Positions 1-34,999 of a stretch of DNA of 64,000 nt are shown in pieces. A model generated the notes under the pieces. That model saw only the letters and a list, made by a program, of their open reading frames with translations, made no database searches and had not been told where the DNA came from. Origin of the DNA: an uncultured Planctomycetia bacterium (GTDB taxonomy: Bacteria; Omnitrophota; Gorgyraeia; VGKH01; JBHPFN01); the NCBI GenBank assembly GCA_964406665.1, contig CAYOSQ010000002.1:118219-182218 (forward strand), in the 5' to 3' direction. The position numbers and the translations under genes were made by a program. Within the stretch, counting starts at the first letter, position 1. Every line of letters starts with the position of its first letter.

Positions 1-574
1 CAAGAATCTCTCGTTCTCTTAAAATCTCCCTGGAGATATCGGTAACAAGTGATATGCGGTTTTTACCTTTTTCCTTAGATACATATAAAGCTTTATCTGC
101 TAAGTCAATCAATCTTAGTGTATCTTGTGCATCGTCGGGATAATTGGCTATTCCTATGCTTAGATTGATTTTTAAGCTCACCTGAGCAGATTTTAAATTA
201 AACTTATTTCCAGATATTGCTTTTGAGATTTTCTTTGCAATATTCAGTGATTCGGTTAATGAGCCTCCAGGCAAGATAACAGTGAACTCATCTCCTGCGT
301 AGCGGACAACAGTATCTTCAGATCTGACGCACTCGCTTATGATTTCAGCAACCGTCTTTAAAACTTCATCTCCAGCCAAATGGCCGTACTTATCGTTGAT
401 TAATTTAAAATCATCTATATCAATCATAAAAAACCACATGTTTCCGCCAGAGCTTTTAGTGCGAGAGATCTCTTCGGGTAGATATTGATAGAGGTATCTC
501 CGGTTAAAAACATTGGTTAACTCGTCACGGAATACTAGTTGCTCAACTCTTTTTTTTGGCTTATTTTCTGCCAT
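1..574 (-). CDS. GGDEF-domain diguanylate cyclase. The N-terminus lies at 574; the C-terminus runs past the window start.
   Basis: My translation of the minus strand from the ATG at 574 gives MAENKPKKRVEQLVFRDELTNVFNRRYLYQY...DIDDFKLINDKYGHLAGDEVL...RYAGDEFTVILPG. This is a GGDEF fold with an AGDEF active-site variant. The frame stays open to position 1. It is absent from the ORF track because it is edge-truncated. Confidence 0.7.
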   Translation of the reverse strand, partial: MAENKPKKRVEQLVFRDELTNVFNRRYLYQYLPEEISRTKSSGGNMWFFMIDIDDFKLINDKYGHLAGDEVLKTVAEIISECVRSEDTVVRYAGDEFTVILPGGSLTESLNIAKKISKAISGNKFNLKSAQVSLKINLSIGIANYPDDAQDTLRLIDLADKALYVSKEKGKNRISLVTDISREILREREIL

Positions 575-592
575 AGTTTTTTGACGTTTTAA

Positions 593-1486
593 TTATACAG
601 CTTCTTCAGAGCCGTAAATGCATGCTCTATCTTTACCGAGGCACTTTGCTTGGTAAAGTGCTCTATCAGCTTTTTCAATAAGCTCCTCTTTAGATGCTGC
701 ATCTGAAGGAAACGAAGAAATTCCCACGCTTACTGTAATTGTAAGATTTTTTCGAACAAGATTTAGTATTCTTTTTGCTGCTGCAATAGCTCCCAGTTGA
801 GGTGTTTGTGGTAGAAGAACAGCAAACTCCTCGCCTCCATATCTAAACACCATATCTACAACTCTGATGGATTCCTTAAAGAAATGTCCTAATTTTCTAA
901 GCATTTCATCACCGGCCAGATGACCATGAGAATCGTTGAACTTTTTGAACCCATCGATATCCAGCATTAACAAAGAAAACTCTTGGGGATATCTCTTGGC
1001 TCGTTCAAGTTCTCTGGGGAGCATTTCATAAAAATATCTGTAGTTATAAACCCCAGTCAGACCATCTATAATAGAAAGTTCACGGTAGTATTCTTTTTTT
1101 CCAGCTTCTTCTAAAAGCCTCTGTCTTTCTGCTGTACGTGAAAGCACTATTCTTATGTCATCAGAATTAAATGGTTCTGTAATATAGTCGTATGCTCCTC
1201 TGCGAATTGCCTCAACTGCTGATTTATCATTTGAAGAATCTGTCGTAGCGATAACGCAGATATTTGGATTTTCTGCTTTCATTCTTTCAATCATGTCAAT
1301 GCTTTTTATGCTGGGAGACCTCAAGTCGATGATTACTATTTGGAATTTATTGTTTTTTGTAAGATTTAGCCCTTCGTCTCCCGAGAGTGCATGCCAAATG
1401 CTGAAAGTTTCTTTGCAAACGCTGGCGATAGCATCCTTAACTTCTTTTGTCTTATCAATTATTAAAATATTATTTTTAATATCCAT
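593..1486 (-). CDS. Response-regulator receiver (REC) + GGDEF diguanylate cyclase, PleD/WspR-like.
   Basis: The N-terminal REC domain shows ILIIDKTKEV...IVIIDLRSP. The C-terminal part shows DGLTGVYNYRYF...RYGGEEFAVLLP, a canonical GGEEF motif. Confidence 0.85.
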   Translation of the reverse strand: MDIKNNILIIDKTKEVKDAIASVCKETFSIWHALSGDEGLNLTKNNKFQIVIIDLRSPSIKSIDMIERMKAENPNICVIATTDSSNDKSAVEAIRRGAYDYITEPFNSDDIRIVLSRTAERQRLLEEAGKKEYYRELSIIDGLTGVYNYRYFYEMLPRELERAKRYPQEFSLLMLDIDGFKKFNDSHGHLAGDEMLRKLGHFFKESIRVVDMVFRYGGEEFAVLLPQTPQLGAIAAAKRILNLVRKNLTITVSVGISSFPSDAASKEELIEKADRALYQAKCLGKDRACIYGSEEAV

Positions 1487-3192
1487 TATTCTACAGATGT
1501 CACCCTTAAAACTTCTTCGAATGTTGTTAATCCTAGGCTGAATTTCTTGATGGCGTCATCCCATAAAGTCAACATACCGTTTTCTTTTACAGCGTAATTT
1601 CTTATTTTATCTTGAGAAGCACCTTTAACTATCATTTCTCTAATGCTGTCGTTAATCATCATAACTTCTAGAAGGCCCATCCTGCCTCTATATCCAGTAT
1701 TTCTACATGATTTACAACCTTTTCCTTTAAAGAATTTTGCATCTTTTCCAGGCTTAAATCCAATATCTTCAAGAGCGGATTCTGAAATCTTTATTGGTTC
1801 TTTGCATCTTTCGCAAATTTTCCTGCATAATCTTTGAGCGCAAGCCATAATTGCAGAAGATGAAACTAGAAAAGGTTCAACTCCCATATCAATTAAACGA
1901 GTAACCGCACCTGGTGCATCGTTTGTATGGAGTGTTGAAAAAACTAAAGTTCCCGTTAGGGCAGATTTAACCGCAATATCAGCTGTTTCAGAATCTCTAA
2001 TTTCACCGATCATTATCATATCAGGGTTTTGCCTGAGTAAAGATCTTAAGCCGCTGGCAAAGGTTAAGCCAATTTCTGGTTTAACATTAAGTTGGGTAAT
2101 GCCGTCAATTTGATATTCTACCGGATCCTCTACGGTAATTATATTTCTTTCAACCTGATTAAGCTGGTTAACTATAGAGTATAGTGTTGTAGACTTACCG
2201 CTTCCGGTAGGTCCAGTAACTAAAATTAAACCGAAGGGAGAAGCTATGGCTTTTTTAAATAGTGCAGTATTCTCAGGAAAAAAACCTAAACCGTCGAGGC
2301 CGATAGACAGATTCGCTCTATCGAGTAAGCGCAGTACAATCTTTTGTCCGTGAGTAATCGGTAAGATTGATACGCGAAAATCGATCTCTTTACCACCAAA
2401 CCTAATTTTGAATCTTCCGTCTTGAGGAAGTCGTAATTCTGTAATATCTAGATTTGTCATAATCTTTAATCGTGCGATAATAGCATTTTGATTCTTTTTA
2501 GGAAGCGACATTGCGTCGATAAGAACTCCGTCTATGCGATATCTTACTCTCAGATCTTTTTCTGTAGGCTCAACGTGGATATCTGATGCTCGCTGCTTCA
2601 TAGCTTCCCTGATAATTAAGTTTACCACCTGAATAATTGGCGCTTCTCCACTCTTCATGATAGTTGAGCTAATTTCTATTTGGTCAGCATCGTCATCAAG
2701 GGTTACCATGTTATCTCTGTCGCCAAGTTCTTTGATTACATCTGAAACAGAATCTTTTTCACTTCTATAGTATTTATTAATTGATTTGATTATGTCTTGT
2801 TCTGTGGACATTGCAATATCAATATCGTATCCAGTCAAATTTTTAATATCATCAAGCGCAAAAATATTTAAGGGATCTGCTGTGGCAAGTGTGATAGTTG
2901 AACCAATTTTGGAAATTGGAACAATGCGGTATTGACGGCAAATTCTCTCAGGGATAACTTTTATAACATCAGGGTCAATTCTGTATTTAGATAAATTTAT
3001 TGGTGGGATATTAAGTTCTTTTGCTAAAATGCCAATCAGTTCTTTTTCAGTAATCAGACCTTTTTCAACCAGAATTTTTTCAAGGCTGATTCCCTTTTGT
3101 TTTTGAGCCTTGATAGCTTTATCAAAATCTTCCTTTTTGATTTTTTTGTTTTCAACAATGATTTCTACTATTCTCTCTTTTAATGTTTTCAT
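1486..3192 (-). CDS. pilB: Type IV pilus/T2SS assembly ATPase, PilB/GspE family, paralog 1, with an N-terminal GspE_N/MshEN-like domain.
   Basis: Walker A GPTGSGKSTT is present, with Asp/His boxes and a tetracysteine CRKICERC...CKSCRNTGYRGR. Length is 568 aa with an N-terminal extension. Confidence 0.9.
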   Translation of the reverse strand: MKTLKERIVEIIVENKKIKKEDFDKAIKAQKQKGISLEKILVEKGLITEKELIGILAKELNIPPINLSKYRIDPDVIKVIPERICRQYRIVPISKIGSTITLATADPLNIFALDDIKNLTGYDIDIAMSTEQDIIKSINKYYRSEKDSVSDVIKELGDRDNMVTLDDDADQIEISSTIMKSGEAPIIQVVNLIIREAMKQRASDIHVEPTEKDLRVRYRIDGVLIDAMSLPKKNQNAIIARLKIMTNLDITELRLPQDGRFKIRFGGKEIDFRVSILPITHGQKIVLRLLDRANLSIGLDGLGFFPENTALFKKAIASPFGLILVTGPTGSGKSTTLYSIVNQLNQVERNIITVEDPVEYQIDGITQLNVKPEIGLTFASGLRSLLRQNPDMIMIGEIRDSETADIAVKSALTGTLVFSTLHTNDAPGAVTRLIDMGVEPFLVSSSAIMACAQRLCRKICERCKEPIKISESALEDIGFKPGKDAKFFKGKGCKSCRNTGYRGRMGLLEVMMINDSIREMIVKGASQDKIRNYAVKENGMLTLWDDAIKKFSLGLTTFEEVLRVTSVE

Positions 3193-3193
3193 T

Positions 3194-4927
3194 TTATTCT
3201 AACGGTTCATCAGGAGTAGTTACTTTTAGTACCTCCTCTAAAGACGTAAGGCCGGCTGCAACTTTTTTTATTCCATCTTCTCTTAAGGTAACCATTCCTT
3301 CTTTCCTACTTTGTTGTTTTAAAACATTATCAGCTGCTCTGGATAAAATTAATTCTCTAATTTTTGGAGAAAGAGGCATAATTTCGGAAATACAAACTCT
3401 TCCCTTGTAACCAGTTTGAAGACAAGTTTTACACCCTTTACCTTTATAGAATTCTATAGAACTTTCCGCATTAGTGGTAATCCCTAACCGCTTAGACATC
3501 TCTGGACTAATATTAAATGGTTCTTTACACTTCTCGCAAATTTTTCTAATGAGTCTTTGAGCTACGATAGCTATAACTGAAGAAGAAATTAAAAAAGGCT
3601 CAACTCCCATGTTCACCAATCTAATTATAGACCCGGGAGCAGTTGTTGTATGAAGAGTGCTTAGAACGAGATGTCCTGTTAAGGCAGATTTGATTGCTAT
3701 GTCAACAGTCTCAAAATCTCTAATTTCTCCGATCATTATAGTGTCAGGGTCTTGTCGCAATATGGATCGTAGGCTTGAAGCAAAGGTAAGCCCAATGTCT
3801 GGTTTAGCTGTTACTTGATTAATTCCTCGTAACTGATATTCCACAGGGTCTTCAACAGTAATTGCATTTTTCTCAGGAGAATCAATGTATTTAAGTATCG
3901 AATAAAGCGTGGTAGTTTTTCCAGAACCCGTAGGACCACAAACAAGTATCATACCATGTGGTTTTAAAGAACACTCTTTTAAAACTTCTAATGGTTTTCC
4001 TTCAAACCCTAGTTTATCAATATCTAAAATTGCATTAGCTTTATCTAAAATTCTAAGTGCAACTTTTTCTCCCCAGCCAGTAGGTAAAATAGAAACACGA
4101 AAATCCACTTGTCTATTTTCAATCATCGTCTTGAATCTTCCATCCTGAGGAAGACGGTGCTCCGCGATATCCAGAGAAGACATAACCTTAATACGTGAAA
4201 CAATTGACGGATGCAGCGTTTTCGGAGGAGAATCAAGAGCCCTTAAAGTACCATCAATTCTAAAACGGATCCTTAATTGCTTTTCCATAGGTTCAATTAA
4301 AATGTCGCTAGCCTTAGATTCAATCCCTTGCCTTAAGATTGCCTCAGTTAATTTAATTACAGGAGCTTCCTGTGTTAAGCGCGTTAGCTCATCTATAGAC
4401 ATAGACTCTTCATCAGCTCCTTTTATTAATTCTAGTTTCTCCAACTTGCTTTTTTCCATAGAATCCATTATTTCTTCTAGTACCTGGTGAGAGTCTTCTG
4501 AATAATAGTTTTCAATTGCTTCTAATATTTCTTTTGGACGAGCAACCACGGTATTTATTTCAAATCCAGTTAATGTTTTTGCATTGTCTATAGCAAAAAT
4601 ATTTAAAGGGTCACCAATAGCAAGGGTTAGAGAATTTCCAATTTTGGAGACAGGAATGATTTGGTGGAATATAGCAACATCTTTGGGAATAACTTTGATT
4701 ACTTCTGGAGGAATTTTGATGCGTGCAAGCTCTATATTGGGGAGCCCCAAGCTTTCGCTTAAAGCAATTGCAAGGTCGTTTTCATTAACAAGTTCTAGCT
4801 TAACTAGTATTTCGCTTAATCTCCCGCCTTTTTTCTTTTGTTCAGCTAAGGCTTTGTCTAGGTCTTCCTTTGTGATGAGCTTATTCTTTAATAAAAGCTC
4901 CATTAAGCGTTCTTTAAGCGAAATCAT
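3194..4927 (-). CDS. pilB: Type IV pilus/T2SS assembly ATPase, PilB/GspE family, paralog 2.
   Basis: Walker A GPTGSGKTTT and a tetracysteine CEKCKEP...CKTCLQTGYKGR are present. Length is 577 aa with a GspE_N-like N-terminus. Confidence 0.9.
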   Translation of the reverse strand: MISLKERLMELLLKNKLITKEDLDKALAEQKKKGGRLSEILVKLELVNENDLAIALSESLGLPNIELARIKIPPEVIKVIPKDVAIFHQIIPVSKIGNSLTLAIGDPLNIFAIDNAKTLTGFEINTVVARPKEILEAIENYYSEDSHQVLEEIMDSMEKSKLEKLELIKGADEESMSIDELTRLTQEAPVIKLTEAILRQGIESKASDILIEPMEKQLRIRFRIDGTLRALDSPPKTLHPSIVSRIKVMSSLDIAEHRLPQDGRFKTMIENRQVDFRVSILPTGWGEKVALRILDKANAILDIDKLGFEGKPLEVLKECSLKPHGMILVCGPTGSGKTTTLYSILKYIDSPEKNAITVEDPVEYQLRGINQVTAKPDIGLTFASSLRSILRQDPDTIMIGEIRDFETVDIAIKSALTGHLVLSTLHTTTAPGSIIRLVNMGVEPFLISSSVIAIVAQRLIRKICEKCKEPFNISPEMSKRLGITTNAESSIEFYKGKGCKTCLQTGYKGRVCISEIMPLSPKIRELILSRAADNVLKQQSRKEGMVTLREDGIKKVAAGLTSLEEVLKVTTPDEPLE

Positions 4928-5382
4928 TCTTTATTTCCTTCTCCATAATATTTATCTATTGAATGTTTAATGTCAGTAGATGTGCTTACAAAAGTTTGTA
5001 TTGTGCATTCAGTTATCATTTCCACATCCTCAATTGCATGTGTATTTAGAGGATTTGACATTGCTAGAGTTAAGCTTTTTCCAATTTTATCAACCGGGAT
5101 AAGGCAGTATTGCCTGCAGACATTTTCTGGAATAACAGAAATAACCTTGGGATCAATTTCGTAGCAAACAAGCGGTAGAAACGGAAAGCCATACTGATCA
5201 GTTAGGGCTTGAACAATATCTTCTTCTTTTGCATATTCAAGAGAAACCAACACCTCTCCAATTAAGCCACCCTTTTTCTTTTGAACTTCAAGAGCCTCAG
5301 AAAGCTGCTCTGGTGTTATAATACCGTTTTCTATAAGGAGTTGACCTAATTGTTTTTTTGTTAATCTATTAAGTTGAGTCAT
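4924..5382 (-). CDS. Standalone GspE_N/MshEN-type domain protein, a putative c-di-GMP receptor.
   Basis: The 152-aa protein carries two tandem 24-residue motifs, LGQLLIENGIITPEQLSEALEVQ and LIGEVLVSLEYAKEEDIVQALTDQ. These match the MshEN c-di-GMP-binding consensus RLGxxLxxxGxIxxxxLxxALxxQ. There is no ATPase domain. Its stop overlaps the pilB2 start by 4 nt. Confidence 0.65.
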   Translation of the reverse strand: MTQLNRLTKKQLGQLLIENGIITPEQLSEALEVQKKKGGLIGEVLVSLEYAKEEDIVQALTDQYGFPFLPLVCYEIDPKVISVIPENVCRQYCLIPVDKIGKSLTLAMSNPLNTHAIEDVEMITECTIQTFVSTSTDIKHSIDKYYGEGNKE

Positions 5383-5391
5383 AAAGTCACC

Positions 5392-6237
5392 TTATGACAA
5401 AATTTGGTTGCTTTCTTCCGGATTAGTTTCTGTTAAAATTCTTTGGGCCTTTTCAATCAATTCTTCTGAGGTCATACCATCAACTGGGTTTTCTGTGACA
5501 ACTCCTGTTATGGTAAGATTTAGAGTTTTTTCTGTTGAAGAAAAAATACTTTCAACTTTTTTTCTGATATCTTCAGCTAGTACAATAGCCTGTTTTTTGT
5601 TTCTTTCTGGAACCACTACGGCAAATTTTTCGTCAGAAAATCTTGCAACTTTATCTATTTCGCTGGTGCAATCTTTAATAATATTAGAGATAGTCTTCAA
5701 TGATTTTTCAGCAGAGCTAAAACCAGATGATGACACAATATTTTTGAAGCGGTCAACTTTTATCAACATGAAAGCGCATGGTCTTTGAAAGCTAATGGCT
5801 CTTTTTATCTCTTCTTCCAGCTTCTCTTTTAAAAAGGAGGGCTTGTATAGTCCCGTAAGGGAGTCCTCGACTTCTAAACTTTTAACCTTTTCTGATAAAG
5901 CACTTAAAGAATTGTTTAGGCTTCCGATTTCGTCGGACCCGCCGATAGTTTTTTTAGCACTTTCATAACCTGCGGCAATACCACGAGCAGATGAACTTAC
6001 ATTAATAATTGAATCAATGACTCCCTTTAGAATAAAGAAGCCCAGCAAGGCAAAAAAGAAAGCCAATGTTAACACAAGACCTAAGTTGTCAGCAATAAAT
6101 GATTTAGAAGCAGAATTGGGAAATATGTAGTTTAGAAGAAGTAAAATCGGAATTATGGTGGTAAGGCAAAAGGCTATTAAAATCTTAGATTTTAAACCAC
6201 TTGAGTTTATAGATATATTTTTTGAAAAACGACCCAT
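5392..6237 (-). CDS. Membrane protein (2 TM) with a degenerate GGDEF domain.
   Basis: N-terminal TM helices are followed by DSLTGLYKPSFL...RFSDEKFAVVVP. This has the GGDEF fold, but the GGEEF motif is replaced by SDEKF, so the protein is probably catalytically inactive. Confidence 0.6.
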   Translation of the reverse strand: MGRFSKNISINSSGLKSKILIAFCLTTIIPILLLLNYIFPNSASKSFIADNLGLVLTLAFFFALLGFFILKGVIDSIINVSSSARGIAAGYESAKKTIGGSDEIGSLNNSLSALSEKVKSLEVEDSLTGLYKPSFLKEKLEEEIKRAISFQRPCAFMLIKVDRFKNIVSSSGFSSAEKSLKTISNIIKDCTSEIDKVARFSDEKFAVVVPERNKKQAIVLAEDIRKKVESIFSSTEKTLNLTITGVVTENPVDGMTSEELIEKAQRILTETNPEESNQILS

Positions 6238-6377
6238 TTTTCGCCTCCCCGTTTATTCTAAGTTATTACTATACATAACATTTGCATTAATGTCAATGAA
6301 TTTTGAATGTTTATCAGCGGGATTTTTTGATTTTATTTATTTAATTGCAGATAGTTGTGGCTTTACTTGATGTAAAA

Positions 6378-7490
6378 TCAGAAGATTTTTCTTTTTTCGT
6401 TGATATTCAGAATGATGCCGATTAAAACTGCAAAAATAACCAATGTAGAGCCTCCATAGCTAATAAATGGAAGTGACAGGCCAACAACTGGACAAAGGCC
6501 TAAGGTCATAGATAGGTTAACCACTACCTGAAAGGCAAATAATCCAATAATGCCAACGATAAGGTATGTGGCAAACTTATCCCTGGTTTGAAAGGCAATC
6601 TTAAAGGCAGATAAAATCAAGATTAAATATAGAGAAACAAGAATTGATGCTCCCAAAAACCCCCACTCCTCACCAATTACAGAGAATACAAAATCTGTAT
6701 GGCGTTCTGGTAGAAAGTTTAGCTGATTCTGAGTTCCGGAAAGCCACCCTTTACCTAGAAGCCTTCCTGAGCCAATAGCGATCTTCGATTGGATCATTGT
6801 GTATCCAGCGCCCAAAGGATCAATGTTGGGATTCATAAAAACCAATAAGCGTTCTTTTTGATATCCTTTAAGAAAATGCCAAAGAACAGGAAAAGAAAGT
6901 AGACCTGTGGCAATCAAGCCAAATAAATATTTTGGTCTTGTTTCTGCGATAAGTAAAATTGATAAAAATATCGGAATTAGCGTTAAGGCGGTTCCTAAGT
7001 CTGGCTGCATAAAAATCAATCCCATAGGAATAAGAATGAGCGAAAAAGGAATTATTAATTCTCTAACCATCGACATGGAATTAGCTATAAATCCTGACTT
7101 AACGCTATAGGATCTCGTTTGACTGAAATATTTACTAAGAATAATGATTACGGAAAGCTTCATCAATTCCGAAGGCTGGAAGTTAAAAAAACCGAGTTCA
7201 AACCAACGTTGAGCACCTAAAATTTCTCGTCCGAAAATCAAAACTAATATAAGAAGAAAAGCGCTTATCCCGTAAAGATAATTAGCAAAGTCGTAAAAAC
7301 GTCTATAGTTAATCCTGCTTATTGCAATTATCACAAGAAAAGAAAATAATAATTTTACCAAATGTTTTATAAAGATATTTTTATAAAGAGGATTTGCTGC
7401 TTGATAAGTTGAGCTGTATACGGCAAGTAATCCAAATACCATTATTGCTGCTGTTAAATATAGAATTTTTAAACTACGCTTGCTATACAT
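6378..7490 (-). CDS. rodA: SEDS-family peptidoglycan polymerase RodA (FtsW/RodA/SpoVE).
   Basis: A 370-aa polytopic membrane protein sits directly downstream of PBP2 and mreBCD. Confidence 0.8.
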   Translation of the reverse strand: MYSKRSLKILYLTAAIMVFGLLAVYSSTYQAANPLYKNIFIKHLVKLLFSFLVIIAISRINYRRFYDFANYLYGISAFLLILVLIFGREILGAQRWFELGFFNFQPSELMKLSVIIILSKYFSQTRSYSVKSGFIANSMSMVRELIIPFSLILIPMGLIFMQPDLGTALTLIPIFLSILLIAETRPKYLFGLIATGLLSFPVLWHFLKGYQKERLLVFMNPNIDPLGAGYTMIQSKIAIGSGRLLGKGWLSGTQNQLNFLPERHTDFVFSVIGEEWGFLGASILVSLYLILILSAFKIAFQTRDKFATYLIVGIIGLFAFQVVVNLSMTLGLCPVVGLSLPFISYGGSTLVIFAVLIGIILNINEKRKIF

Positions 7491-7494
7491 TCTA

Positions 7495-9210
7495 TTAGTT
7501 TTTTAAATCCAACTTCTTTACTTCTTCTAAGATCTTCTTAGCTAAAACGCAGGCATTATAAGACGATCCGCCGTGTTCTAAGAATACACAAAAAGCTATT
7601 TCAGGCTTTTTTGTAGGGCCGTAACCTGCAAACCAAGAATGAGATTTTCCTCTGGAAGCTTGAGCCGTACCAGTTTTTCCCGCAACTGGAAATCCAGATA
7701 TATTAACAATATGTGCTGTTCCACTTGGATCTGAAACAACATTTCTTAAAGCGCTCCTGATGGTTTCTAAAGTTTCGTTTTTAACCGCAATCTTCTTTGC
7801 AGAGTCTTTTCTTACAACTTGAGCGCCATTAATTGAAAGCAGTAAAAATGGTTCAATTAGCCATCCGCCATTAGCGATTGCTGCCATAAGTCGTGCAGCT
7901 TGCAGAGGTGTAGCTAGAAATTCTCCCTGGCCAATGGAAAAATTAATCGTGTTGCCCTTATACCATCTTTCATTTTTGAAAAGTCTTTTTTTGATTTTGC
8001 TTGGAACGTTCCCCTTCTGTTCAAATGGTAAATCTATTCCTGTTAGCTTTCCAAAACCCCAATCAAGTGCATATTTTTCTATTAATTCAGGACCTAAAAT
8101 TAATCCCAGGTTATAAAAATATGTATTACAAGAATGCGTAATAGCATCCCTTAATTCCTGAATGCCGTGATTTCTTGAACATCGAAATGATGCATTTCCG
8201 ATTCTGAAATTACCATTACAAGTAAAGCTTGTATATGGACTAGTTTTATCTTCTTCTAGAGATGCAGTTGCGATAACGATTTTAAATATCGAACCCGGAG
8301 GATAAAGTCCGCTAATACAGCGATTAAGCATAGGACTTCTTTTATCTTTAAAAAGGTTCTTAATTCTATTTTCAGAATTTGCGGCAGTAAAAATATTAGG
8401 ATCGTAACTAGGAGAACTTACCATGGCTAAGATTTCTCCCGAATAGGGTTGTATAATGACAATTGCACCTTTCTTGTTACCTAATGTTTTGGCAGCGATT
8501 TTTTGAATTCTAAGATCGATGGTGATAGCAACATCCTTTCCTTTTTCAGGAGAGCGCATTGCTAAAACCTCTACTTGACGACCTCGGTTATCCGCCTTAA
8601 TTTGAGTTCCTCCGTCTTTTCCTTTTAAAAAACGATCAAAAAATTCTTCAACACCAGTATGTCCTACCAGATCCTTTACGCTATAGCCATATTCTTTTAA
8701 TTTTGATATTTTGGATTTGCTCACTAATCCAAGATATCCTAAGATATGAGAACAAATTTTACCGTGAAGATATGAACGTTCAGGAAAAGTTTCAATGATG
8801 ATTCCCGGTAAGGCTGTCTTTTTTTGTTCAATCATCATTGCTTGTTTTTTCGTAATGTTCTTTTTTATTAAGATCGGAGCAAAAGGGGCATAATAGTTTT
8901 TCTTAAAGTTTTTGTTAAGAGTTTCTTCTTCAACGTCAAGCAGCTTGCTTAAGATATTAAAAGTTGAATCTTTTTCCTTGAATTCTTGTGGAATTATAGC
9001 AATATTATAAGCCAGACGATTTTTTACAAGTATTTCACCATTTCGATCTGTAATAATTCCTCGCGGAGATTTTTGTTCGATTAGCCGGATATAGTTTTTT
9101 CTGCTTAGATTGTAGTAAGAGTTTCCTCTGACGACCTGCAATTTGATAAGACCAAAAAGAGGGAATAAAAATAAGCAAATTAGTATTAAAAGGAATACTT
9201 TGGAGCGCAT
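7495..9210 (-). CDS. mrdA: Penicillin-binding protein 2 (class B transpeptidase).
   Basis: It has an N-terminal anchor, a PBP dimerisation domain and a transpeptidase domain with the SxxK motif (GSIFK) and KTG (AGKTGTA). Confidence 0.85.
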   Translation of the reverse strand: MRSKVFLLILICLFLFPLFGLIKLQVVRGNSYYNLSRKNYIRLIEQKSPRGIITDRNGEILVKNRLAYNIAIIPQEFKEKDSTFNILSKLLDVEEETLNKNFKKNYYAPFAPILIKKNITKKQAMMIEQKKTALPGIIIETFPERSYLHGKICSHILGYLGLVSKSKISKLKEYGYSVKDLVGHTGVEEFFDRFLKGKDGGTQIKADNRGRQVEVLAMRSPEKGKDVAITIDLRIQKIAAKTLGNKKGAIVIIQPYSGEILAMVSSPSYDPNIFTAANSENRIKNLFKDKRSPMLNRCISGLYPPGSIFKIVIATASLEEDKTSPYTSFTCNGNFRIGNASFRCSRNHGIQELRDAITHSCNTYFYNLGLILGPELIEKYALDWGFGKLTGIDLPFEQKGNVPSKIKKRLFKNERWYKGNTINFSIGQGEFLATPLQAARLMAAIANGGWLIEPFLLLSINGAQVVRKDSAKKIAVKNETLETIRSALRNVVSDPSGTAHIVNISGFPVAGKTGTAQASRGKSHSWFAGYGPTKKPEIAFCVFLEHGGSSYNACVLAKKILEEVKKLDLKN

Positions 9211-9671
9211 TTTTTTATTAAATTGATTATTATGGGTGAGACTAGAGAAGTAAACAGGCTCTCGGCCGTTCCTTTTAGAAGTATCTGTGGCACAGCTTCC
9301 AATCTAGCAGAAAACAAAGAAAGCAAGCAAATGATTAGAATGTTCGCAAACGAAATGATAAATACAAATAACGCTTGTTCAAAAAATCTTTCCCTATAAA
9401 TAAAACTTTTTAATCTACGAGCAATATATCCGCAAATAGTAAAACTTATCAAATATGAACCAAAAGCACCAAAGCTAAAGATATCTTTTAAAAGCCCACT
9501 ACAAGAAGCAACTATCTTACCTTCTTTTTTGGAGAAATAAATATTTGCTACAATAGCAATTATCAAAAGAAAATCAGGCTTAACATGGAACAGCCTTAGA
9601 TTTTCAGGATAATTAATTGAAAACAATATTGCTGCAATTGATAAAATAGAAAAAACTACCGGTCTTTTCAT
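9186..9671 (-). CDS. mreD: Rod shape-determining protein MreD.
   Basis: A small 161-aa polytopic membrane protein sits between mreC and mrdA. Confidence 0.55.
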   Translation of the reverse strand: MKRPVVFSILSIAAILFSINYPENLRLFHVKPDFLLIIAIVANIYFSKKEGKIVASCSGLLKDIFSFGAFGSYLISFTICGYIARRLKSFIYRERFFEQALFVFIISFANILIICLLSLFSARLEAVPQILLKGTAESLFTSLVSPIIINLIKKCAPKYSF

Positions 9672-9679
9672 TTGAATAG

Positions 9680-10459
9680 TTACTTGATGACGACTAGGAC
9701 ATCTTCGAGTTTAGATAAATCTGCAGTGGGCTTAATTAAGCAAAAGCGCATGAGACCGTTGGGGTCTTCGAAAATTTCCTCTACTTCTCCAATGAGGATA
9801 CTCTTAGGTAGTAAGCCTCCTAAGCCGGATGTAATTACTTTATCTGAAATACTTATGTCAGAAGATAAAGATAAATAGCTCATGCGGCAGCGACCATCCA
9901 AGGTACCTGCGACTATTCCTTCTTCTCTGTTGCGCTGGACCAAAGAGGCAATTCCGATATTGATATCGTTTATTAAAAGCACTCTGCTTGATAAGCTTCC
10001 GACTTCTACAACTTTTCCAATGAGACCACCATCTGCAATAACTGCAGCGTCAGTTGAAATTCCGAGTTTTTTTCCGCCTCCAATAATTATGTTCGATTTC
10101 CAGTTTGAGGGATCTCTGCCAATTACAGGCACGGTGATTAATTTTAAATTGGAACGCTTTTTGTAAGAAAGTAATTTTTTTAGTCTTTCGTTTTCTTTTA
10201 ATGTTTCTTCGAGTTTAAGAATATCGGATTTTATGCTTCCAAGGTCTTTCCTAAGAGATTCATTTTCTTTTAGACAAGAACCGCAGGAAAAAAGTGACTT
10301 TACTGAGTTTGATATTTTAGATGTTAGTTTTAAGGGGAATTTAAAAATATCAACAACTAAAAGTTTAAATGGTGCTATGAAGAATGGTTGCGCTAGGAAA
10401 ATAAGCGAAAGGATTACAGCAGATATTAAAAAAATAGTTCGTTTTTTGAGCCTGATCAC
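9680..10459 (-). CDS. mreC: Rod shape-determining protein MreC.
   Basis: N-terminal TM, a coiled-coil, then a beta-rich periplasmic domain. It sits downstream of mreB. Confidence 0.75.
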   Translation of the reverse strand: MIRLKKRTIFLISAVILSLIFLAQPFFIAPFKLLVVDIFKFPLKLTSKISNSVKSLFSCGSCLKENESLRKDLGSIKSDILKLEETLKENERLKKLLSYKKRSNLKLITVPVIGRDPSNWKSNIIIGGGKKLGISTDAAVIADGGLIGKVVEVGSLSSRVLLINDINIGIASLVQRNREEGIVAGTLDGRCRMSYLSLSSDISISDKVITSGLGGLLPKSILIGEVEEIFEDPNGLMRFCLIKPTADLSKLEDVLVVIK

Positions 10460-10474
10460 ATGAATTCAGTAAAA

Positions 10475-11548
10475 CTAAAATTCTAATTTGGTGGAAACTA
10501 CAACTCGTTTTAAATATTTAATTTCGTCTAAGACTTTTCCCGTACCAATAGCAACTGCGGTAAGTGGGTCGTCAGCTATGTGAACTGGAAGGCCAGTATG
10601 TTCTGAAATCAATTGGTCAATGCCTCGTAAAAGTGAGCCGCCACCAGCAAGAATGATTCCACGTTCAATTAAATCTGCGGCTAGCTCAGGAGGTGTTCTC
10701 TCGAGTGTAACTTTAGCAGCTTCTAAAATTTCTTGAATTGGTTCAGCTAGGGCTTCTCTAACTTCGCTAGATGATACTTCGACCATTTTAGGTAGTCCGG
10801 CTACCAGGTCTCTTCCTTTGACCTCCATGGTAAGCTCTTCATCTAAAGGATAAGCTGAGCCAATGCGGATTTTAATTTCTTCAGAAGTTCTTTCACCAAC
10901 CATAAGATTATATGACTTTTTCATATATTCGATTATAGCCTGGTCCATTTCATCGCCACCGATGCGTATTGATCTAGAAAACACTATGCCTGCAAGTGAA
11001 ATAATAGCCATCTCTGTTGTTCCCCCGCCAATATCAATAATCATGCTTCCCTGGGGTTCAACAATGGGTAAGCCAACACCTATTGAAGCAGCCATAGGTT
11101 CTTCTACCAAGAACACTGCTCTTGCTCCTGCGCGCTCGGCTGAATCTCGCACAGCTCTTTTTTCAACTTCTGTAATACCTGATGGAATAGCAATTACCAT
11201 TCTCGGGCGTACAAGAACTGTCCTTTTATGGACCTTTTTAATAAAATACCGAAGCATAGCCTCGGTAATTTCAAAATCAGCAATAACACCATCTTTCATC
11301 GGGCGAATAGCAACAATACTTCCAGGGGTTCTTCCTAGCATCCTCTTGGCTTCTTCACCTACTGCTAAAACATGGTTGGTATCTTTCTGTATAGCCACTA
11401 CAGATGGCTCACAAAGAACAACTCCCTCGCCCTTTACGTAAACTAGGGTGGTAGCGGTACCAAGGTCTATTCCCATATCATTAGAAAAAAGACCTAAAGC
11501 GTAGTTTAATATTTTTTTTGCTATTTTGATTAGTTTTTGGAGATTCAT
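10475..11548 (-). CDS. mreB: Actin-like rod shape-determining protein MreB.
   Basis: The N-terminus reads [19 protein letters not shown]. It has the full actin/Hsp70 fold signatures. Length is 357 aa. Confidence 0.95.
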
Positions 11549-11606
11549 TTTTAGCTCCTGTAGATTTAATAATAATATCGTAAAACCTGTTGTCTGTCAA
11601 TAGTTT

Positions 11607-12896
11607 TTAAGCCTGATTAAATTCTGCTCCGAGCTTGGATAAGTCCATGAGGAAGTCGGGATAGGATTTATTGATGCATTTAATGTTGCTTACCGTAACA
11701 CCAATTTTTAGCCCCAGTATGCAAAATGCCATAGCTAGCCTATGGTCATTGTGCGGATTTAAGGTTTTACCAGTGATTAGTTTACAATTAGGATAAATAA
11801 TCAGACTACCTCTCGTCTCTTTAATTCTTGCGCCGACTTTTTCGAGCTCTACTCTTAAGTCGCTTATTCTATTTGACTCTTTTGTTCTAGTGTGCTCTAT
11901 GCCGTAAATTTCAGTTTTGCTATTGGCGAAAAGGGCCAAAACTGACAATATGGGCACTAAATCTGGACAATCTCTACAAAATAGCTTGGCACCTTTTATT
12001 TTTGAAGACTTTAATATGGTTAAGCCGCTTTTGCTAATTTTATATTTAACTCCCATGCTTTTAAGCATAGGCAATATTTTCATATCAGCTTGGACAAAAT
12101 CATCTTTCTTTAAATTGTTGAAATAAATTTTAAAGTTATTTATGGCAGAAGCCACCATAAAAAAAGCACCTAGACCGTAATCGCCAGGAATATTAAAGTT
12201 TTTCAAAGCTTTGTATTTCTGATTTCCCCTAACTTTAAATTCTCGAGAATTACTTTTTTTTACATGAATCCCAGCTTTTTTTAAAGATAAGATAGTCATA
12301 TCGATGTAAGGGTTGGAAACCAAGCAGCTCCCTTTGATTTTTACAATCGAGTCTTTGGATAAAAAAGGACCAAGAATTAAAAGCGAAGAAATAAATTGAG
12401 AGCTGAGCCTTCCGTCAATTACAATGCGACCACCTTTCAGACTTCCTTTTTTTACATTAATAGGAGTGCAGTGATTTTTTCCTGTTCCAGATATTTTAGC
12501 ACCTTGTTTTTTTAAAACATCAATCAGTGGTTTATTTGGTCTAGAATTTAAAGTACCGGAACCTAATATTTTGGTGTTGTTTTTTGTCAGGGATGCTATG
12601 GAAAGCAGAAAGCGTAACGTAGTACCAGATTCTTTTACATTAAACGTTTTTGGAAATTTAATTTTCCCTTCAACGCCAGAAATCATACAAGAAGATTTAT
12701 TCAGAAATTTGATTTTTGCACCAAGTTGTCTACAGACATTAATTGATGCTTCTACATCGTCACATAAAGAAAGGTTTTTGATTGTTGATTTTTTTCCCAG
12801 AGAAGCTATGAATACAGCTCTGATGCTGTATGATTTTGAAGCTGGAGCAGAAATTTTTCCACTTAAGGAAAGATTCGGTTTTAAAACAAGGTTCAT
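11607..12896 (-). CDS. aroA: 3-phosphoshikimate 1-carboxyvinyltransferase (EPSP synthase).
   Basis: It has the EPSPS fold. GKISAPASKSYSIRAVFIA and HNDHRLAMAFCILGL match the AroA DHRMAMAF motif rather than MurA. It lies within an aromatic amino-acid gene neighbourhood. Confidence 0.75.
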   Translation of the reverse strand: MNLVLKPNLSLSGKISAPASKSYSIRAVFIASLGKKSTIKNLSLCDDVEASINVCRQLGAKIKFLNKSSCMISGVEGKIKFPKTFNVKESGTTLRFLLSIASLTKNNTKILGSGTLNSRPNKPLIDVLKKQGAKISGTGKNHCTPINVKKGSLKGGRIVIDGRLSSQFISSLLILGPFLSKDSIVKIKGSCLVSNPYIDMTILSLKKAGIHVKKSNSREFKVRGNQKYKALKNFNIPGDYGLGAFFMVASAINNFKIYFNNLKKDDFVQADMKILPMLKSMGVKYKISKSGLTILKSSKIKGAKLFCRDCPDLVPILSVLALFANSKTEIYGIEHTRTKESNRISDLRVELEKVGARIKETRGSLIIYPNCKLITGKTLNPHNDHRLAMAFCILGLKIGVTVSNIKCINKSYPDFLMDLSKLGAEFNQA

Positions 12897-13666: not shown

Positions 13667-13737
13667 CCTTCCTCCTTTTTAATTTACTTAATTTTGAATT
13701 ATTATATATTATTTACATGGGTAAAACAAGAGTATTC

Positions 13738-15071: not shown

Positions 15072-15100
15072 TTATGATAATCGAACTGCCAAAAAGCAGT

Positions 15101-33765: not shown

Positions 33766-33781
33766 TCCTAATAGTATTCTC

Positions 33782-34996: not shown

Positions 34997-34999
34997 TGA

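What the first reader, a model, noticed from the sequence alone, without database searches (positions are those of the whole stretch)
1..6237. A c-di-GMP production/sensing block sits directly against tandem PilB ATPases
Six consecutive co-oriented genes run as follows: GGDEF (AGDEF variant, partial), REC-GGDEF (canonical GGEEF), PilB paralog 1, PilB paralog 2, a standalone MshEN-type receptor domain, and a 2-TM protein with a degenerate GGDEF (SDEKF) that is more plausibly an effector than a cyclase. The gaps are 0-20 nt. The gene order looks like a self-contained c-di-GMP circuit that controls pilus extension ATPases. The standalone receptor domain is an unusual element in that circuit.
Basis: partly seen in the sequence, partly recalled or inferred. 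Interest (0 to 1): 0.7.

Follow-up and report, generated by a model that had tools for sequence, protein, structure and literature searches.

The report
Split c-di-GMP sensor beside twin pilus motors
In an uncultured Omnitrophota bacterium, the start of a type IV pilus operon interleaves c-di-GMP signalling genes with two pilus-assembly ATPases whose own c-di-GMP-binding motifs have decayed, next to a small free-standing copy of that sensor domain that keeps them, and this layout recurs across the phylum.

Summary
Six co-oriented, tightly packed genes lie on the minus strand. In transcription order they are: a degenerate GGDEF protein, a 152-aa MshEN-only protein, PilB1, PilB2, REC-GGDEF, and a partial AGDEF-GGDEF.

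The window cuts the operon. An identical contig shows the partial gene is the N-terminus of a 1415-aa GGDEF-STAND-HEAT protein. After it come a second MshEN-only protein (155 aa), PilC, a pilin, PilN/O, and a secretin.

The organism belongs to Omnitrophota. In related loci the MshEN-only gene precedes PilB1 in 20/20 cases, and PilB2 follows in 14/14. The slot before PilC holds a REC-HD-GYP phosphodiesterase, a second MshEN-only gene, or cyclases plus that gene.

The free-standing proteins form two families (n=117 and 118). Both keep the ligand-contacting Gly and Gln of both 24-residue motifs. PilB1 and PilB2 orthologues have almost entirely lost those Gly. A third ATPase in the same window keeps a near-canonical motif.

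Best reading: the sensor acts in trans on the motors. This is inferred, not shown.

The first gene is a conserved dead GGDEF without an RxxD I-site, so "effector" is unsupported. ATPase-less MshEN proteins already have a precedent (PA3740). This is a new variant of a known kind, of moderate interest.

The parts
6268..6296 (-). Promoter-like site (TTGACA-17 nt-TATAGT) in the 140-nt gap after rodA. A GGGGAGG Shine-Dalgarno sequence follows, 6 nt before the ATG at 6237. This is the likely start of the operon.
   Evidence: It is the best-scoring site in the scan, 11 of 12 matches. The sequence was read directly. It is a consensus match only, not shown to function.
5392..6237 (-). Membrane-anchored degenerate GGDEF protein of 281 aa: TM-TM-HAMP-like-GGDEF, with SDEKF in place of GGDEF. 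It is non-catalytic and has no RxxD I-site. It is a shortened orthologue of the ~480-aa TM-HAMP-GAF-dGGDEF protein of other Omnitrophota.
   Evidence: Pfam GGDEF 92.8 bits. The alignment shows loss of DxD, ND, GD and GG[DE]EF in all orthologues, and S/T at the I-site Arg. An in-frame loss of ~195 aa including the GAF domain is shared with L042. Pfam calls HAMP/GAF in the relatives.
4924..5382 (-). MshEN-a: a free-standing complete MshEN domain of 152 aa, with both the N 4-helix bundle and the C alpha/beta subdomain. It is the candidate trans-acting c-di-GMP receptor. Its stop codon overlaps the PilB1 start codon (ATGA).
   Evidence: Pfam MshEN 64.3 bits and NF053729 c-di-GMP_motif 65.5 bits against a cut-off of 38. 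The AF2 model has pLDDT 86.3, and its best Foldseek hit is 5HTL, MshE-N with c-di-GMP. Across the family, Gly3 is 117/117 in both motifs and Gln24 is 113 and 117 of 117. The overlap was read directly.
3194..4927 (-). PilB1: a PilB/GspE-type assembly ATPase of 577 aa. Walker A, Walker B, the His box and the tetracysteine motif are intact. Its N-terminal MshEN motifs are degenerate (RLM... / RLS...S).
   Evidence: Pfam T2SSE 457 bits plus MshEN 60 bits. TIGR02538 scores 659.1 against a cut-off of 675.65, and NF053729 scores 54.3. Among orthologues, Gly3 is 1/24 in motif I and 0/24 in motif II, and Gln24 of motif II is 0/24. The ATPase motifs were read from the sequence.
1486..3192 (-). PilB2: a second PilB/GspE-type ATPase of 568 aa, about 46-49% identical to PilB1 orthologues. 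Its ATPase motifs are intact and its MshEN motifs are more degenerate (RIV... / SLE...E).
   Evidence: Pfam T2SSE 441 bits plus MshEN 82.5 bits. TIGR02538 scores 645.3 and NF053729 scores 40.3. Among orthologues, Gly3 is 0/18 in motif I and 2/18 in motif II.
593..1486 (-). REC-GGDEF of 297 aa: a PleD/WspR-like probable diguanylate cyclase. The GGEEF A-site, RVVD I-site and DIDGFK..ND..GD residues are intact. The receiver keeps the phospho-acceptor Asp54, but its acidic pocket and conserved Lys are not canonical.
   Evidence: Pfam Response_reg 58.4 bits plus GGDEF 142.1 bits. Residues were read from the alignments. It occupies the slot that holds REC-HD-GYP in eight related loci.
1..574 (-). 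The first 191 codons of a 1415-aa protein with an N-terminal GGDEF (AGDEF A-site, RSED I-site), an AAA_16/STAND NTPase, a long helical region and HEAT repeats. The rest of the gene lies beyond the window edge.
   Evidence: Translation. Pfam GGDEF 162.8 bits. The full gene is on the identical contig L011 at 10913-15160. AGDEF, RxxD and Walker A are conserved in four orthologues of 46-64% pairwise identity.

Best explanation
This is the promoter-proximal part of a type IVa-pilus-like operon of an Omnitrophota bacterium. c-di-GMP control appears to have been moved off the motor ATPases onto small free-standing MshEN proteins.

Shown:
- The operon order is dGGDEF - MshEN-a - PilB1 - PilB2 - REC-GGDEF - GGDEF/STAND/HEAT - MshEN-b - PilC - pilin - PilN - PilO - secretin.
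- The core MshEN-a - PilB1 - PilB2 - ... - PilC is conserved across the phylum.
- The slot between PilB2 and PilC holds a different c-di-GMP gene set in different lineages: an HD-GYP phosphodiesterase, MshEN-b alone, or two cyclases plus MshEN-b.
- The free-standing MshEN families keep the ligand-contacting Gly and Gln and the hydrophobic triad. They carry hydrophobic residues at motif position 1.
- PilB1 and PilB2 have lost the Gly.

Inferred:
- c-di-GMP is made locally by REC-GGDEF and the AGDEF-STAND protein in this lineage.
- It is bound with high affinity by MshEN-a and MshEN-b.
- These proteins carry the same N1-type docking subdomain as the ATPases. They associate with PilB1/PilB2 or with the PilM/PilC platform, and gate or select which ATPase engages. 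This would switch pilus assembly on or off.
- The conserved, catalytically dead, membrane-anchored GGDEF protein is an input or scaffold component, not an enzyme or an I-site receptor.
For: Gene content and order:
- Domain calls.
- Operon continuation on the identical contig.
- Promoter-like site, SD sequence and ATGA coupling.

Synteny:
- MshEN-a -> PilB1 in 20/20 informative loci and PilB2 in 14/14.
- REC-HD-GYP in 8 loci.
- MshEN-b alone in L044 and L045.
- Cyclases plus MshEN-b in the window genome, L042, L043 and L046.

Motif statistics:
- Ma and Mb: Gly3 100% and Gln24 at least 97%.
- PilB1 Gly3: 1/24 (motif I) and 0/24 (motif II).
- PilB2 Gly3: 0/18 (motif I) and 2/18 (motif II).

Published mutagenesis:
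- G11L and G40I abolish binding in MshE. The non-binder XpsE has G11V and G40L (PMC5013675).
- Leu at motif position 1 gives KD 2 nM in PilF GSPII-B, and replacing the natural K/L with Arg lowers affinity (PMC11731258).

Other support:
- Internal control: the third ATPase in the same window keeps RLG.../RIG...Q and scores 66.7 bits on NF053729, against 54.3 and 40.3 for PilB1 and PilB2.
- The free-standing families are more conserved (67% and 65% identity) than the PilB1 and PilB2 N-domains (55% and 43%).
- The M152 model matches 5HTL, the PilF GSPII domains, and the PilB-N domain that binds PilZ in X. citri.
- The cyclases have intact A- and I-sites, conserved in orthologues.
Against: - No binding or interaction data exist.
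- Sequence does not predict binding reliably. PilF GSPII-A does not bind even after its consensus is restored (PMC12002112).
- PilB1 and PilB2 still pass the NF053729 cut-off of 38 bits, so loss of binding is not proven.
- MshEN-a has Q/H rather than R/K/L at motif I position 1, and mostly Lys rather than Gly at motif II position 10. Neither variant has been tested in the literature I read.
- The window cluster has no phosphodiesterase. Variants A and B have no cyclase in the cluster, so 'local' synthesis is not general.
- No PilT or PilM was seen next to this genome's cluster, because the contig view ends first.
- The physiological output of the pilus in Omnitrophota is unknown.
Confidence: 0.5

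Rival explanations
1. The cyclases make c-di-GMP, which is sensed directly by the MshEN N-domains of both PilB paralogues, as in V. cholerae MshE or M. xanthus PilB. The free-standing domain and the degenerate GGDEF act as extra receptors.
For: - PilB1 and PilB2 have Pfam MshEN domains and pass NF053729 at 54.3 and 40.3 bits against a cut-off of 38.
- They keep Arg/Lys at motif position 1 and the hydrophobic positions.
- Cis sensing is the documented mechanism in other bacteria (PMC11656802).
Against: - Gly3 of both motifs is lost in 23/24 and 24/24 PilB1 orthologues and in 18/18 and 16/18 PilB2 orthologues. Gln24 of motif II is lost in 24/24 PilB1.
- G11L and G40I abolish binding in MshE.
- The degenerate GGDEF lacks the I-site Arg.
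- The same genome keeps a near-canonical motif in PilB3, so the decay is specific to PilB1 and PilB2.
Confidence: 0.2
2. The free-standing MshEN proteins are ligand-independent structural or assembly subunits. They could be N1-type adaptors that dock on PilM/PilC or cap the ATPase hexamers. On this view their motif conservation reflects the 4-helix-bundle fold, and the neighbouring c-di-GMP enzymes act on other targets.
For: [quoted passage not shown]
- Many motif positions are core hydrophobics.
- The C subdomain resembles the GspE N1 domain that binds GspL (hits 2bh1 and 4pht).
Against: - The invariant positions include exactly the ligand-contacting Gly3 and Gln24 of both motifs. The PilB1/PilB2 N-domains tolerate their loss while keeping the fold.
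- Three different kinds of c-di-GMP gene (HD-GYP, GGDEF, MshEN-b) alternate in the same slot of the operon. That is hard to explain without a c-di-GMP link.
Confidence: 0.2
3. The machine is a type II secretion-like exporter rather than a pilus, so the module controls secretion, not pilus extension.
For: - Both ATPases fall below the PilB equivalog cut-off and also score high on GspE: 587-607 bits against a cut-off of 630.
- The 124-aa protein has weak T2SSB and T2SSC hits, and the secretin has a GspD-like N0 domain.
Against: - PilO, a PilN-like protein, a PilM (in relatives) and several N_methyl pilins lie in the same cluster.
- PilT sits inside the cluster in some relatives.
- TXSScan-based work reports T4aP as near-universal in Omnitrophota (PMC10066038).
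- PilB scores exceed GspE scores for both proteins.
Confidence: 0.1

Closest known systems
V. cholerae MshE, M. xanthus PilB and C. perfringens PilB2: extension ATPases with a cis c-di-GMP-binding MshEN N-domain
   Same: The ATPase family and the MshEN fold are the same. The M152 model matches 5HTL best. Both use a tandem 24-residue motif with a 5-residue spacer. c-di-GMP is linked to pilus assembly.
   Different: Here the motif-preserving MshEN is a separate polypeptide. There are two such families, neither attached to an ATPase. The ATPase-attached copies lack the Gly residues needed for binding in MshE. Position 1 is Q/H/L/F/V rather than Arg.
Thermus thermophilus PilF: three GSPII/MshEN modules on one ATPase, with A non-binding and B and C binding
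   Same: Binding and non-binding MshEN modules divide the labour within one motor. The high-affinity site has a hydrophobic residue at position 1: natural L196, and K167L with KD 2 nM. That resembles the L/F/V of MshEN-a/b.
   Different: In PilF all the modules are fused in one chain. Here the binding-competent-looking modules are separate genes, and there are two ATPase paralogues.
FimX-PilZ-PilB of Xanthomonas citri and P. aeruginosa
   Same: [quoted passage not shown] This is the closest functional analogue of the proposed mechanism.
   Different: No PilZ or EAL domain occurs here. The putative adaptor is itself an MshEN domain. The degenerate GGDEF protein is membrane-anchored with HAMP(-GAF) and has no EAL domain.
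P. aeruginosa PA3740: MshEN plus a diverged T2SSE_N1 domain, with no ATPase
   Same: It is a small ATPase-less MshEN protein that is reported to bind c-di-GMP and to affect surface motility (PMC5013675 main text and Supplementary Table 4).
   Different: The papers I read do not describe PA3740 as translationally coupled to PilB genes or as paired with motif-degenerate ATPases. I did not compare its sequence here.
E. coli DgcJ-NfrB local c-di-GMP signalling to an MshEN domain
   Same: Both involve a dedicated cyclase serving an MshEN-domain effector (PMC8669469, title and abstract as listed).
   Different: The effector there is a glycosyltransferase with a fused MshEN domain, not a pilus motor. 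I read nothing beyond the listed abstract.
Acinetobacter baylyi PilB/TfpB: two extension ATPases for one pilus
   Same: Two extension-type ATPases serve one machine.
   Different: Neither paralogue here is a TfpB. NF053534 scores are 461 and 453 against a cut-off of 850. The pair is adjacent and conserved across the phylum.

Membership tests
MshEN domain (PF05157 / NF053729 c-di-GMP_motif), 152-aa protein | Profile match above the curated cut-offs | tested here: met
   PF05157 scores 64.3 against 23.1. NF053729 scores 65.5 against 38.
MshEN domain (PF05157 / NF053729 c-di-GMP_motif), 152-aa protein | Two 24-residue motifs (R/K/L)LGxxhhxxGhhxxxxLxxxLxxQ joined by a 5-residue spacer | tested here: inconclusive
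   The spacer KKKGG is 5 residues. Gly3 and Gln24 are present in both motifs and the hydrophobic triad is present. Position 1 is Q in motif I and L in motif II. Motif II position 10 is E here and K in most of the family. L at position 1 is validated for binding. Q/H at position 1 and K/E at position 10 are not.
MshEN domain (PF05157 / NF053729 c-di-GMP_motif), 152-aa protein | Fold: an N-terminal 4-helix bundle plus a C-terminal alpha/beta (T2SSE_N1) subdomain | tested here: met
   The AF2 model has pLDDT 86.3 with H-H-H-H followed by alpha/beta elements. The Foldseek top hit is 5HTL with TM 0.75/0.81 and E 2e-11.
MshEN domain (PF05157 / NF053729 c-di-GMP_motif), 152-aa protein | Binds c-di-GMP | not testable with these tools
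   This needs ITC or DRaCALA on purified protein.
c-di-GMP-binding MshEN, N-domains of PilB1 and PilB2 | Gly at position 3 of both motifs (G11 and G40 of MshE; G11L and G40I abolish binding) | tested here: not met
   PilB1 in the window has M and S. PilB2 has V and E. Among orthologues Gly is present in 1/24 and 0/24 PilB1, and in 0/18 and 2/18 PilB2. The domain-level HMMs are still matched.
Type IV-A pilus assembly ATPase PilB (TIGR02538 equivalog) | Score above the equivalog cut-off of 675.65 | tested here: not met
   PilB1 scores 659.1 and PilB2 scores 645.3, a narrow miss in both cases. Both score higher on PilB than on GspE, where they reach 586.9 and 607.2 against a cut-off of 630.25.
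Type IV-A pilus assembly ATPase PilB (TIGR02538 equivalog) | Walker A GPTGSGK[ST], Walker B/Asp box, His box and a tetracysteine Zn motif | tested here: met
   Read from the translations. Both have GPTGSGKT/S, DPD(T/M)IMIGEIRD, STLHT, and CxxC...CxxC.
Type IV-A pilus assembly ATPase PilB (TIGR02538 equivalog) | Genomic context with PilC, PilM/N/O, a secretin and pilins | tested here: met
   PilC, an N_methyl pilin, a PilN-like protein, PilO and a secretin lie on the identical contig. PilM and further pilins are seen downstream in relatives.
Active diguanylate cyclase (GGDEF, PF00990), REC-GGDEF and the 1415-aa N-terminus | GG[DE]EF A-site, the DxD metal site, Asn/Asp for guanine, and optionally an RxxD I-site | tested here: met
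   REC-GGDEF has DIDGFK, ND, GD, GGEEF and RVVD. The 1415-aa protein has DIDDFK, ND, GD, AGDEF (first Gly replaced by Ala) and RSED. All are conserved in four orthologues. That AGDEF enzymes can be active is from my own recollection (V. cholerae VCA0965) and was not checked here. Activity itself is not testable here.
Active diguanylate cyclase, or I-site c-di-GMP receptor, 281-aa protein | A-site and substrate-binding residues; RxxD five residues upstream of the A-site | tested here: not met
   SDEKF is present in place of GGDEF. KVDRFK replaces DxDxFK, VS replaces ND, AE replaces GD, and SEID replaces RxxD. The same decay is found in all eight orthologues aligned.
Response-regulator receiver (REC), 297-aa protein | Phospho-acceptor Asp, acidic Mg pocket, conserved Thr/Ser and Lys | tested here: inconclusive
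   Pfam scores 58.4 against 30.2. Asp54 is kept in 4/4 orthologues. The acidic pair is D-K in the window protein and variable elsewhere. The Lys is E in the window protein and K, K and M in the others.
FimX-PilZ-PilB regulatory complex | A PilZ adaptor and an EAL-domain c-di-GMP receptor | tested here: not met
   No PilZ or EAL domain appears in any of the proteins scanned. The resemblance is functional only.

The most novel reading that the evidence does not exclude
Omnitrophota pilus motors may use a 'split receptor'. PilB1 and PilB2 have given up c-di-GMP binding. Two dedicated free-standing MshEN subunits, MshEN-a coupled to PilB1 and MshEN-b placed before PilC, would bind c-di-GMP with nanomolar affinity through a hydrophobic-stacking variant of the motif. 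They would then dock on the motors or the platform to decide whether, and with which of the two ATPases, the pilus is assembled. The PilB2-PilC slot would act as an evolutionarily exchangeable writer/eraser/reader cassette.
Probability: 0.35. Interest if true: 0.7.

Novelty: new variant of a known kind. Interest (0 to 1): 0.55.

Why it matters
How c-di-GMP binding to MshEN changes the activity of PilB-type motors is still unclear. Reviews note that binding does not alter ATPase rates in vitro and that mutant phenotypes disagree between species (PMC11656802).

A natural system in which the sensor domain is a separate small protein, next to motors whose own sensor sites have decayed, would separate sensing from motor function. 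It would allow direct tests of what the liganded MshEN domain contacts.

It also gives the first concrete regulatory hypothesis for the type IV pili that are near-universal in Omnitrophota. These are an uncultured phylum of ultra-small, probably host-dependent bacteria, in which pili are thought to mediate attachment (PMC10066038).

If the hypothesis is wrong, the locus is still a useful catalogue of conserved but unstudied c-di-GMP components: a dead HAMP-GAF-GGDEF protein, a pseudo-receiver HD-GYP protein, and a GGDEF-STAND-HEAT protein.

Tried and rejected
1. Gene fission from a (MshEN)2-T2SSE ATPase as the origin of MshEN-a. The nearest non-Omnitrophota hits turned out to be a MshEN-plus-HD-type protein (L022) and a single-MshEN ATPase with a long linker (L024). 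They are no closer to M152 than to the PilB1 N-domain. A quick NJ tree without bootstrap puts MshEN-a and MshEN-b as sister families, apart from the ATPase N-domains. This origin is not supported.

2. A c-di-GMP riboswitch in the leader. Rfam at gathering threshold finds only RNase P RNA and two tRNAs in the window.

3. The degenerate GGDEF as an I-site receptor. The Arg of RxxD is absent in the whole family.

4. A phosphodiesterase, PilZ, PilT or further GGDEF genes elsewhere in the window. tblastn with domain queries finds only the three GGDEF and four MshEN copies, and no HD-GYP or PilT.

5. PilF GSPII-C as a counter-example to the Gly3 requirement, because of its RLEDT motif. The paper states that GSPII-C has three motif copies, so that copy need not be the one used.

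6. The M152 ORF as an artefact of a mis-called PilB1 start or a frameshift. The ORF length of 147-165 aa is conserved in the best 120 homologue clusters. In relatives the gene is separated from PilB1 by anything from a 4-nt overlap to about 300 nt.

7. A search for literature on free-standing MshEN proteins or on c-di-GMP in Omnitrophota pili. Apart from PA3740 in Wang et al. 2016, nothing was found. The library does not cover subscription journals.

Full report
**1. What is in the sequence**

The region 1-6237 carries six ORFs, all on the minus strand.

| Coordinates | Size | Content |
|---|---|---|
| 5392-6237 | 281 aa | Degenerate GGDEF protein |
| 4924-5382 | 152 aa | MshEN only |
| 3194-4927 | 577 aa | PilB1 |
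| 1486-3192 | 568 aa | PilB2 |
| 593-1486 | 297 aa | REC-GGDEF |
| 1-574 | 191 codons | Open-ended ORF |

Pfam and NCBIfam confirm the domains:
- GGDEF scores 92.8, 142.1 and 162.8 bits for the three GGDEF proteins.
- Response_reg scores 58.4 bits.
- T2SSE scores 457 and 441 bits for PilB1 and PilB2.
- MshEN scores 64.3 (152-aa protein), 60.2 (PilB1) and 82.5 (PilB2) bits.

The junctions are a 9-nt gap, a 4-nt ATGA overlap, a 1-nt gap, a 1-nt overlap and an 18-nt gap.

Upstream on the same strand lie mreB, mreC, mreD, PBP2 and rodA.

The 140-nt gap after rodA contains the best promoter-like match of the region, TTGACA-17-TATAGT at 6296-6268. A GGGGAGG Shine-Dalgarno sequence follows it. No terminator-like site on the minus strand lies inside the six genes.

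**2. The window cuts the operon**

The 152-aa and 297-aa proteins occur with identical sequence on JGI and ENA metagenome contigs. The tested 3-kb stretches of the window's reverse complement match contig Ga0118720_1000576 exactly.

On that contig (L011):
- The partial GGDEF is the N-terminus of a 1415-aa protein: GGDEF with AGDEF, then an AAA_16/STAND NTPase, a long helical region, and HEAT repeats.
- Next comes a second MshEN-only protein of 155 aa. It scores 73.5 bits on Pfam MshEN and 65.0 bits on NF053729.
- Then come PilC/T2SSF, a protein with an N-methylation pilin motif, a PilN-like protein, PilO, a small T2SSB/C-like protein and a secretin.

The 'block' is therefore the head of a complete type IVa-pilus-like gene cluster.

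**3. Organism and conservation**

All named close homologues are from Candidatus Omnitrophota MAGs.

The 152-aa protein (family 'MshEN-a') has at least 1400 homologues at E <= 1e-5. The best 120 clusters are all 147-165 aa and 63-80% identical. The 155-aa protein ('MshEN-b') has 288 homologues at E <= 1e-5. Of the best 120 clusters, 118 are 143-159 aa; the other two are 130 and 174 aa.

I called ORFs in 21 related loci and compared them with the window's proteins:
- MshEN-a is followed by a PilB1 orthologue in 20 of 20 loci where sequence continues.
- PilB2 follows PilB1 in 14 of 14.
- PilC follows after that.

Upstream of MshEN-a is usually a ~480-aa TM-HAMP-GAF-GGDEF protein. In three loci it is a PilT-like ATPase instead.

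The slot between PilB2 and PilC varies between loci:

| Content of the PilB2-PilC slot | Loci |
|---|---|
| REC-HD-GYP | 8 loci |
| Neither gene set detected | 4 loci (in L016 a ~1.2-kb stretch there was not annotated) |
| MshEN-b alone | L044, L045 |
| REC-GGDEF + ~1400-aa GGDEF/STAND/HEAT + MshEN-b | Window genome, L042, L043, L046 |

HD-GYP and MshEN-b never co-occur in the loci seen. Relatives show PilM and further pilins downstream of the secretin.

**4. State of the c-di-GMP enzymes**

- **REC-GGDEF.** It has all the catalytic and I-site residues: DIDGFK, ND, GD, GGEEF and RVVD.
- **The 1415-aa protein.** It has the same residues, with AGDEF and RSED. These and a GxxGxGKS Walker A motif are conserved in four orthologues of 46-64% pairwise identity.
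- **The first gene.** It is not a cyclase. It has KVDRFK for DxDxFK, VS for ND, AE for GD, and SDEKF for GGDEF. All eight aligned orthologues show equally decayed sites (AEDEF, GIGNF, GDNEF, EERIF, GDDEF, SDNQF, DDNEF). The Arg of the RxxD I-site is Ser or Thr throughout. Other segments are conserved (RPCAF, LPEKNKRQA, ENPxDG). This is a conserved non-enzymatic protein without a recognisable c-di-GMP site. The window's copy has lost ~195 residues including the GAF domain by an in-frame deletion, shared with its closest relative L042.
- **REC-HD-GYP proteins of relatives.** They keep the HD and GYP motifs. Their receiver lacks the phospho-acceptor Asp, with K, P or N in its place.
- **Elsewhere in the window.** No HD-GYP, PilT or further GGDEF is found. 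The scanned ORFs contain no EAL or PilZ domain. No c-di-GMP riboswitch is found.

**5. State of the receptor motifs**

Wang et al. (PMC5013675) defined two 24-residue motifs joined by a 5-residue spacer:
- The backbone amides at Gly3 and position 4 bind the guanine.
- Gln24 binds the ribose-phosphate.
- G11L and G40I abolish binding.
- The non-binder XpsE has G11V and G40L.

Conservation of these positions across the families:

| Family | n | Gly3, motif I | Gly3, motif II | Gln24 | Arg at position 1 |
|---|---|---|---|---|---|
| MshEN-a | 117 | 117/117 | 117/117 | 113/117 (I), 117/117 (II) | Never; Q/H (I), L (II) |
| MshEN-b | 118 | 117/118 (one gap) | 118/118 | 118/118 (both) | Never; L (I), F/V (II) |
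| PilB1 | 24 | 1/24 | 0/24 | 0/24 in motif II | Arg/Lys mostly kept |
| PilB2 | 18 | 0/18 | 2/18 | 7/18 in motif II | Not conserved (K/R in 10/18 in motif I; none in motif II) |

The absence of Arg does not count against binding. In T. thermophilus PilF GSPII-B the natural residues at position 1 are K167 and L196. K167L improves the KD to 2 nM, K167R worsens it 25-fold, and L196R worsens it 4-fold. The authors extend the consensus to (R/K/L)LG (PMC11731258).

A third PilB/GspE-type ATPase lies in the same window at 36709-38421. It keeps RLGEILIKQNLI...Q / RIGEVLIRLGII...Q. It scores 66.7 bits on NF053729, like the free-standing proteins (65.5 and 65.0). PilB1 scores 54.3 and PilB2 scores 40.3.

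The free-standing families are also more conserved, at 67% and 65% mean identity. The PilB1 and PilB2 N-domains are at 55% and 43%.

An AlphaFold model of the 152-aa protein has pLDDT 86.3. Its best matches are the c-di-GMP complex of MshE-N (5HTL, TM 0.75/0.81), the PilF GSPII domains, and the X. citri PilB N-domain that binds PilZ.

**6. Most likely mechanism**

Shown: the anatomy, the conservation and the motif pattern described above.

Inferred: c-di-GMP is sensed by MshEN-a and MshEN-b, not by the ATPases' own N-domains. In this lineage it would be made by the two in-cluster cyclases, and in others removed by the in-cluster HD-GYP. Both free-standing proteins carry the complete N1-type docking subdomain. 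That subdomain mediates contacts of PilB/GspE with PilZ or GspL in solved complexes. They could therefore sit on PilB1/PilB2 or compete with them for the platform.

The ATGA overlap of MshEN-a with PilB1 suggests stoichiometric co-production, and so does the position of MshEN-b 4 nt before PilC.

The STAND architecture of the 1415-aa cyclase suggests activation by ligand-induced oligomerisation. This is inference from general knowledge of STAND NTPases and the need for GGDEF dimerisation.

I put about 0.5 on the trans-receptor model as a whole.

Caveats:
- Sequence does not predict binding reliably. PilF GSPII-A stays inactive after its consensus is restored (PMC12002112).
- PilB1 and PilB2 still pass the NF053729 cut-off.
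- Q/H at position 1 and K/E at motif II position 10 of MshEN-a are untested variants.

**7. Comparison with known systems**

Cis-acting MshEN ATPases (MshE, M. xanthus PilB, C. perfringens PilB2) share the fold and the ligand logic, but not the split architecture.

PilF shares the division into binding and non-binding modules, but in one chain.

FimX-PilZ-PilB is the closest functional analogue. It has a non-binding PilB N-domain, a small adaptor and a degenerate-GGDEF partner. It uses PilZ and EAL domains, which are absent here.

PA3740 of P. aeruginosa is a published ATPase-less MshEN protein. The free-standing domain is therefore not unprecedented in itself.

A search of 1.84 billion cluster representatives gave 22,835 MshEN matches. 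By my count from the listed lengths, roughly 41 of the best 150 are single-domain proteins of 200 aa or fewer. Those with names come from Omnitrophota, 'PVC group' or unclassified bacteria, and some are fragments of GspE.

The Omnitrophota survey paper reports T4aP as near-universal but does not mention c-di-GMP, GGDEF or PilB. I found no description of this arrangement, within the limits of an open-access library.

**8. Verdict**

- A c-di-GMP module is indeed built into the pilus operon.
- The likely receptors are the free-standing MshEN proteins rather than the PilB N-domains.
- The dead GGDEF is not a demonstrable effector.
- The circuit is not self-contained.
- The free-standing domain is a phylum-wide feature, not a local oddity.

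Novelty: a new variant of a known kind. Interest: moderate (0.55). The locus offers a clean, testable natural separation of sensing and motor functions, in an uncultured phylum. Every mechanistic step still rests on sequence inference.

Noticed in passing
window 33973-42422, minus strand: A second compact T4P/T2SS-like cluster. It holds a PilM-PilN fusion (40914-42422), a PilO/T2SSM-like protein (40364-40912), a 153-aa protein of unknown function, a secretin (38425-39927), a third PilB/GspE ATPase (36709-38421) with a near-canonical cis MshEN c-di-GMP motif, PilC/GspF (35473-36705) and three N_methyl pilins (33973-35386). The genome therefore has three PilB-type ATPases within 40 kb. Only this one looks able to bind c-di-GMP itself.
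   Followed up: partly
L011 10913-15160 (window 1-574 is its start): A 1415-aa protein with an N-terminal AGDEF-GGDEF, an AAA_16/STAND NTPase, a ~900-aa helical region and C-terminal HEAT repeats. It is conserved at 46-64% pairwise identity in L042, L043 and L046. A STAND-type diguanylate cyclase architecture was not described in the papers I read.
   Followed up: partly
L015 8178-9248, L017 10735-11814, L019, L033-L037: The REC-HD-GYP proteins in the PilB2-PilC slot of other Omnitrophota have intact HD and GYP motifs. Their receiver domain lacks the phospho-acceptor Asp, with K, P or N in its place. They are pseudo-receiver phosphodiesterases.
   Followed up: partly
window 6378-11548 and the related loci: The mreB-mreC-mreD-PBP2-rodA elongasome operon lies immediately upstream of the pilus cluster, on the same strand. 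This neighbourhood is conserved in many Omnitrophota loci (L013, L017, L019, L020, L026, L034-L037, L042-L045). In several of them a ~2-kb stretch that I did not annotate lies between the two.
   Followed up: no
window 5392-6237 compared with L015, L044 and L045: The dead GGDEF protein of this lineage has a clean in-frame deletion of ~195 aa that removes the coiled-coil and GAF domains. TM-TM-HAMP is joined directly to the GGDEF domain. L042 (282 aa) shares the deletion.
   Followed up: yes
L043 4208-14663: In one close relative the cluster is rearranged. MshEN-a still follows rodA, but the segment from PilB2 to the secretin is inverted onto the other strand. MshEN-a is therefore no longer directly followed by PilB1 within the stretch seen.
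   Followed up: no
L014 8894-9964; L028; L032: In some Omnitrophota a PilT-like retraction ATPase (356 aa) sits directly upstream of MshEN-a. In L014 the degenerate GGDEF gene lies just upstream of it. The two lineages with sequence beyond PilB1 (L014, L032) are also the only ones whose PilB2 keeps Gly at motif II position 3.
   Followed up: no
window 32145-32535 and 33692-33855, minus strand: RNase P RNA (bacterial class A, 137 bits) and two tRNA genes lie between the housekeeping genes and the second pilus cluster. The mechanical ORF 32425-32949 overlaps the RNase P RNA and is probably not a gene.
   Followed up: no
window 43955-47537, minus strand: ExbD/TolR (43955-44359), MotA/ExbB/TolQ (44366-45037) and an 829-aa multi-TPR protein (45048-47537) lie upstream of the second pilus cluster. 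UvrA is at 47598-50396.
   Followed up: no
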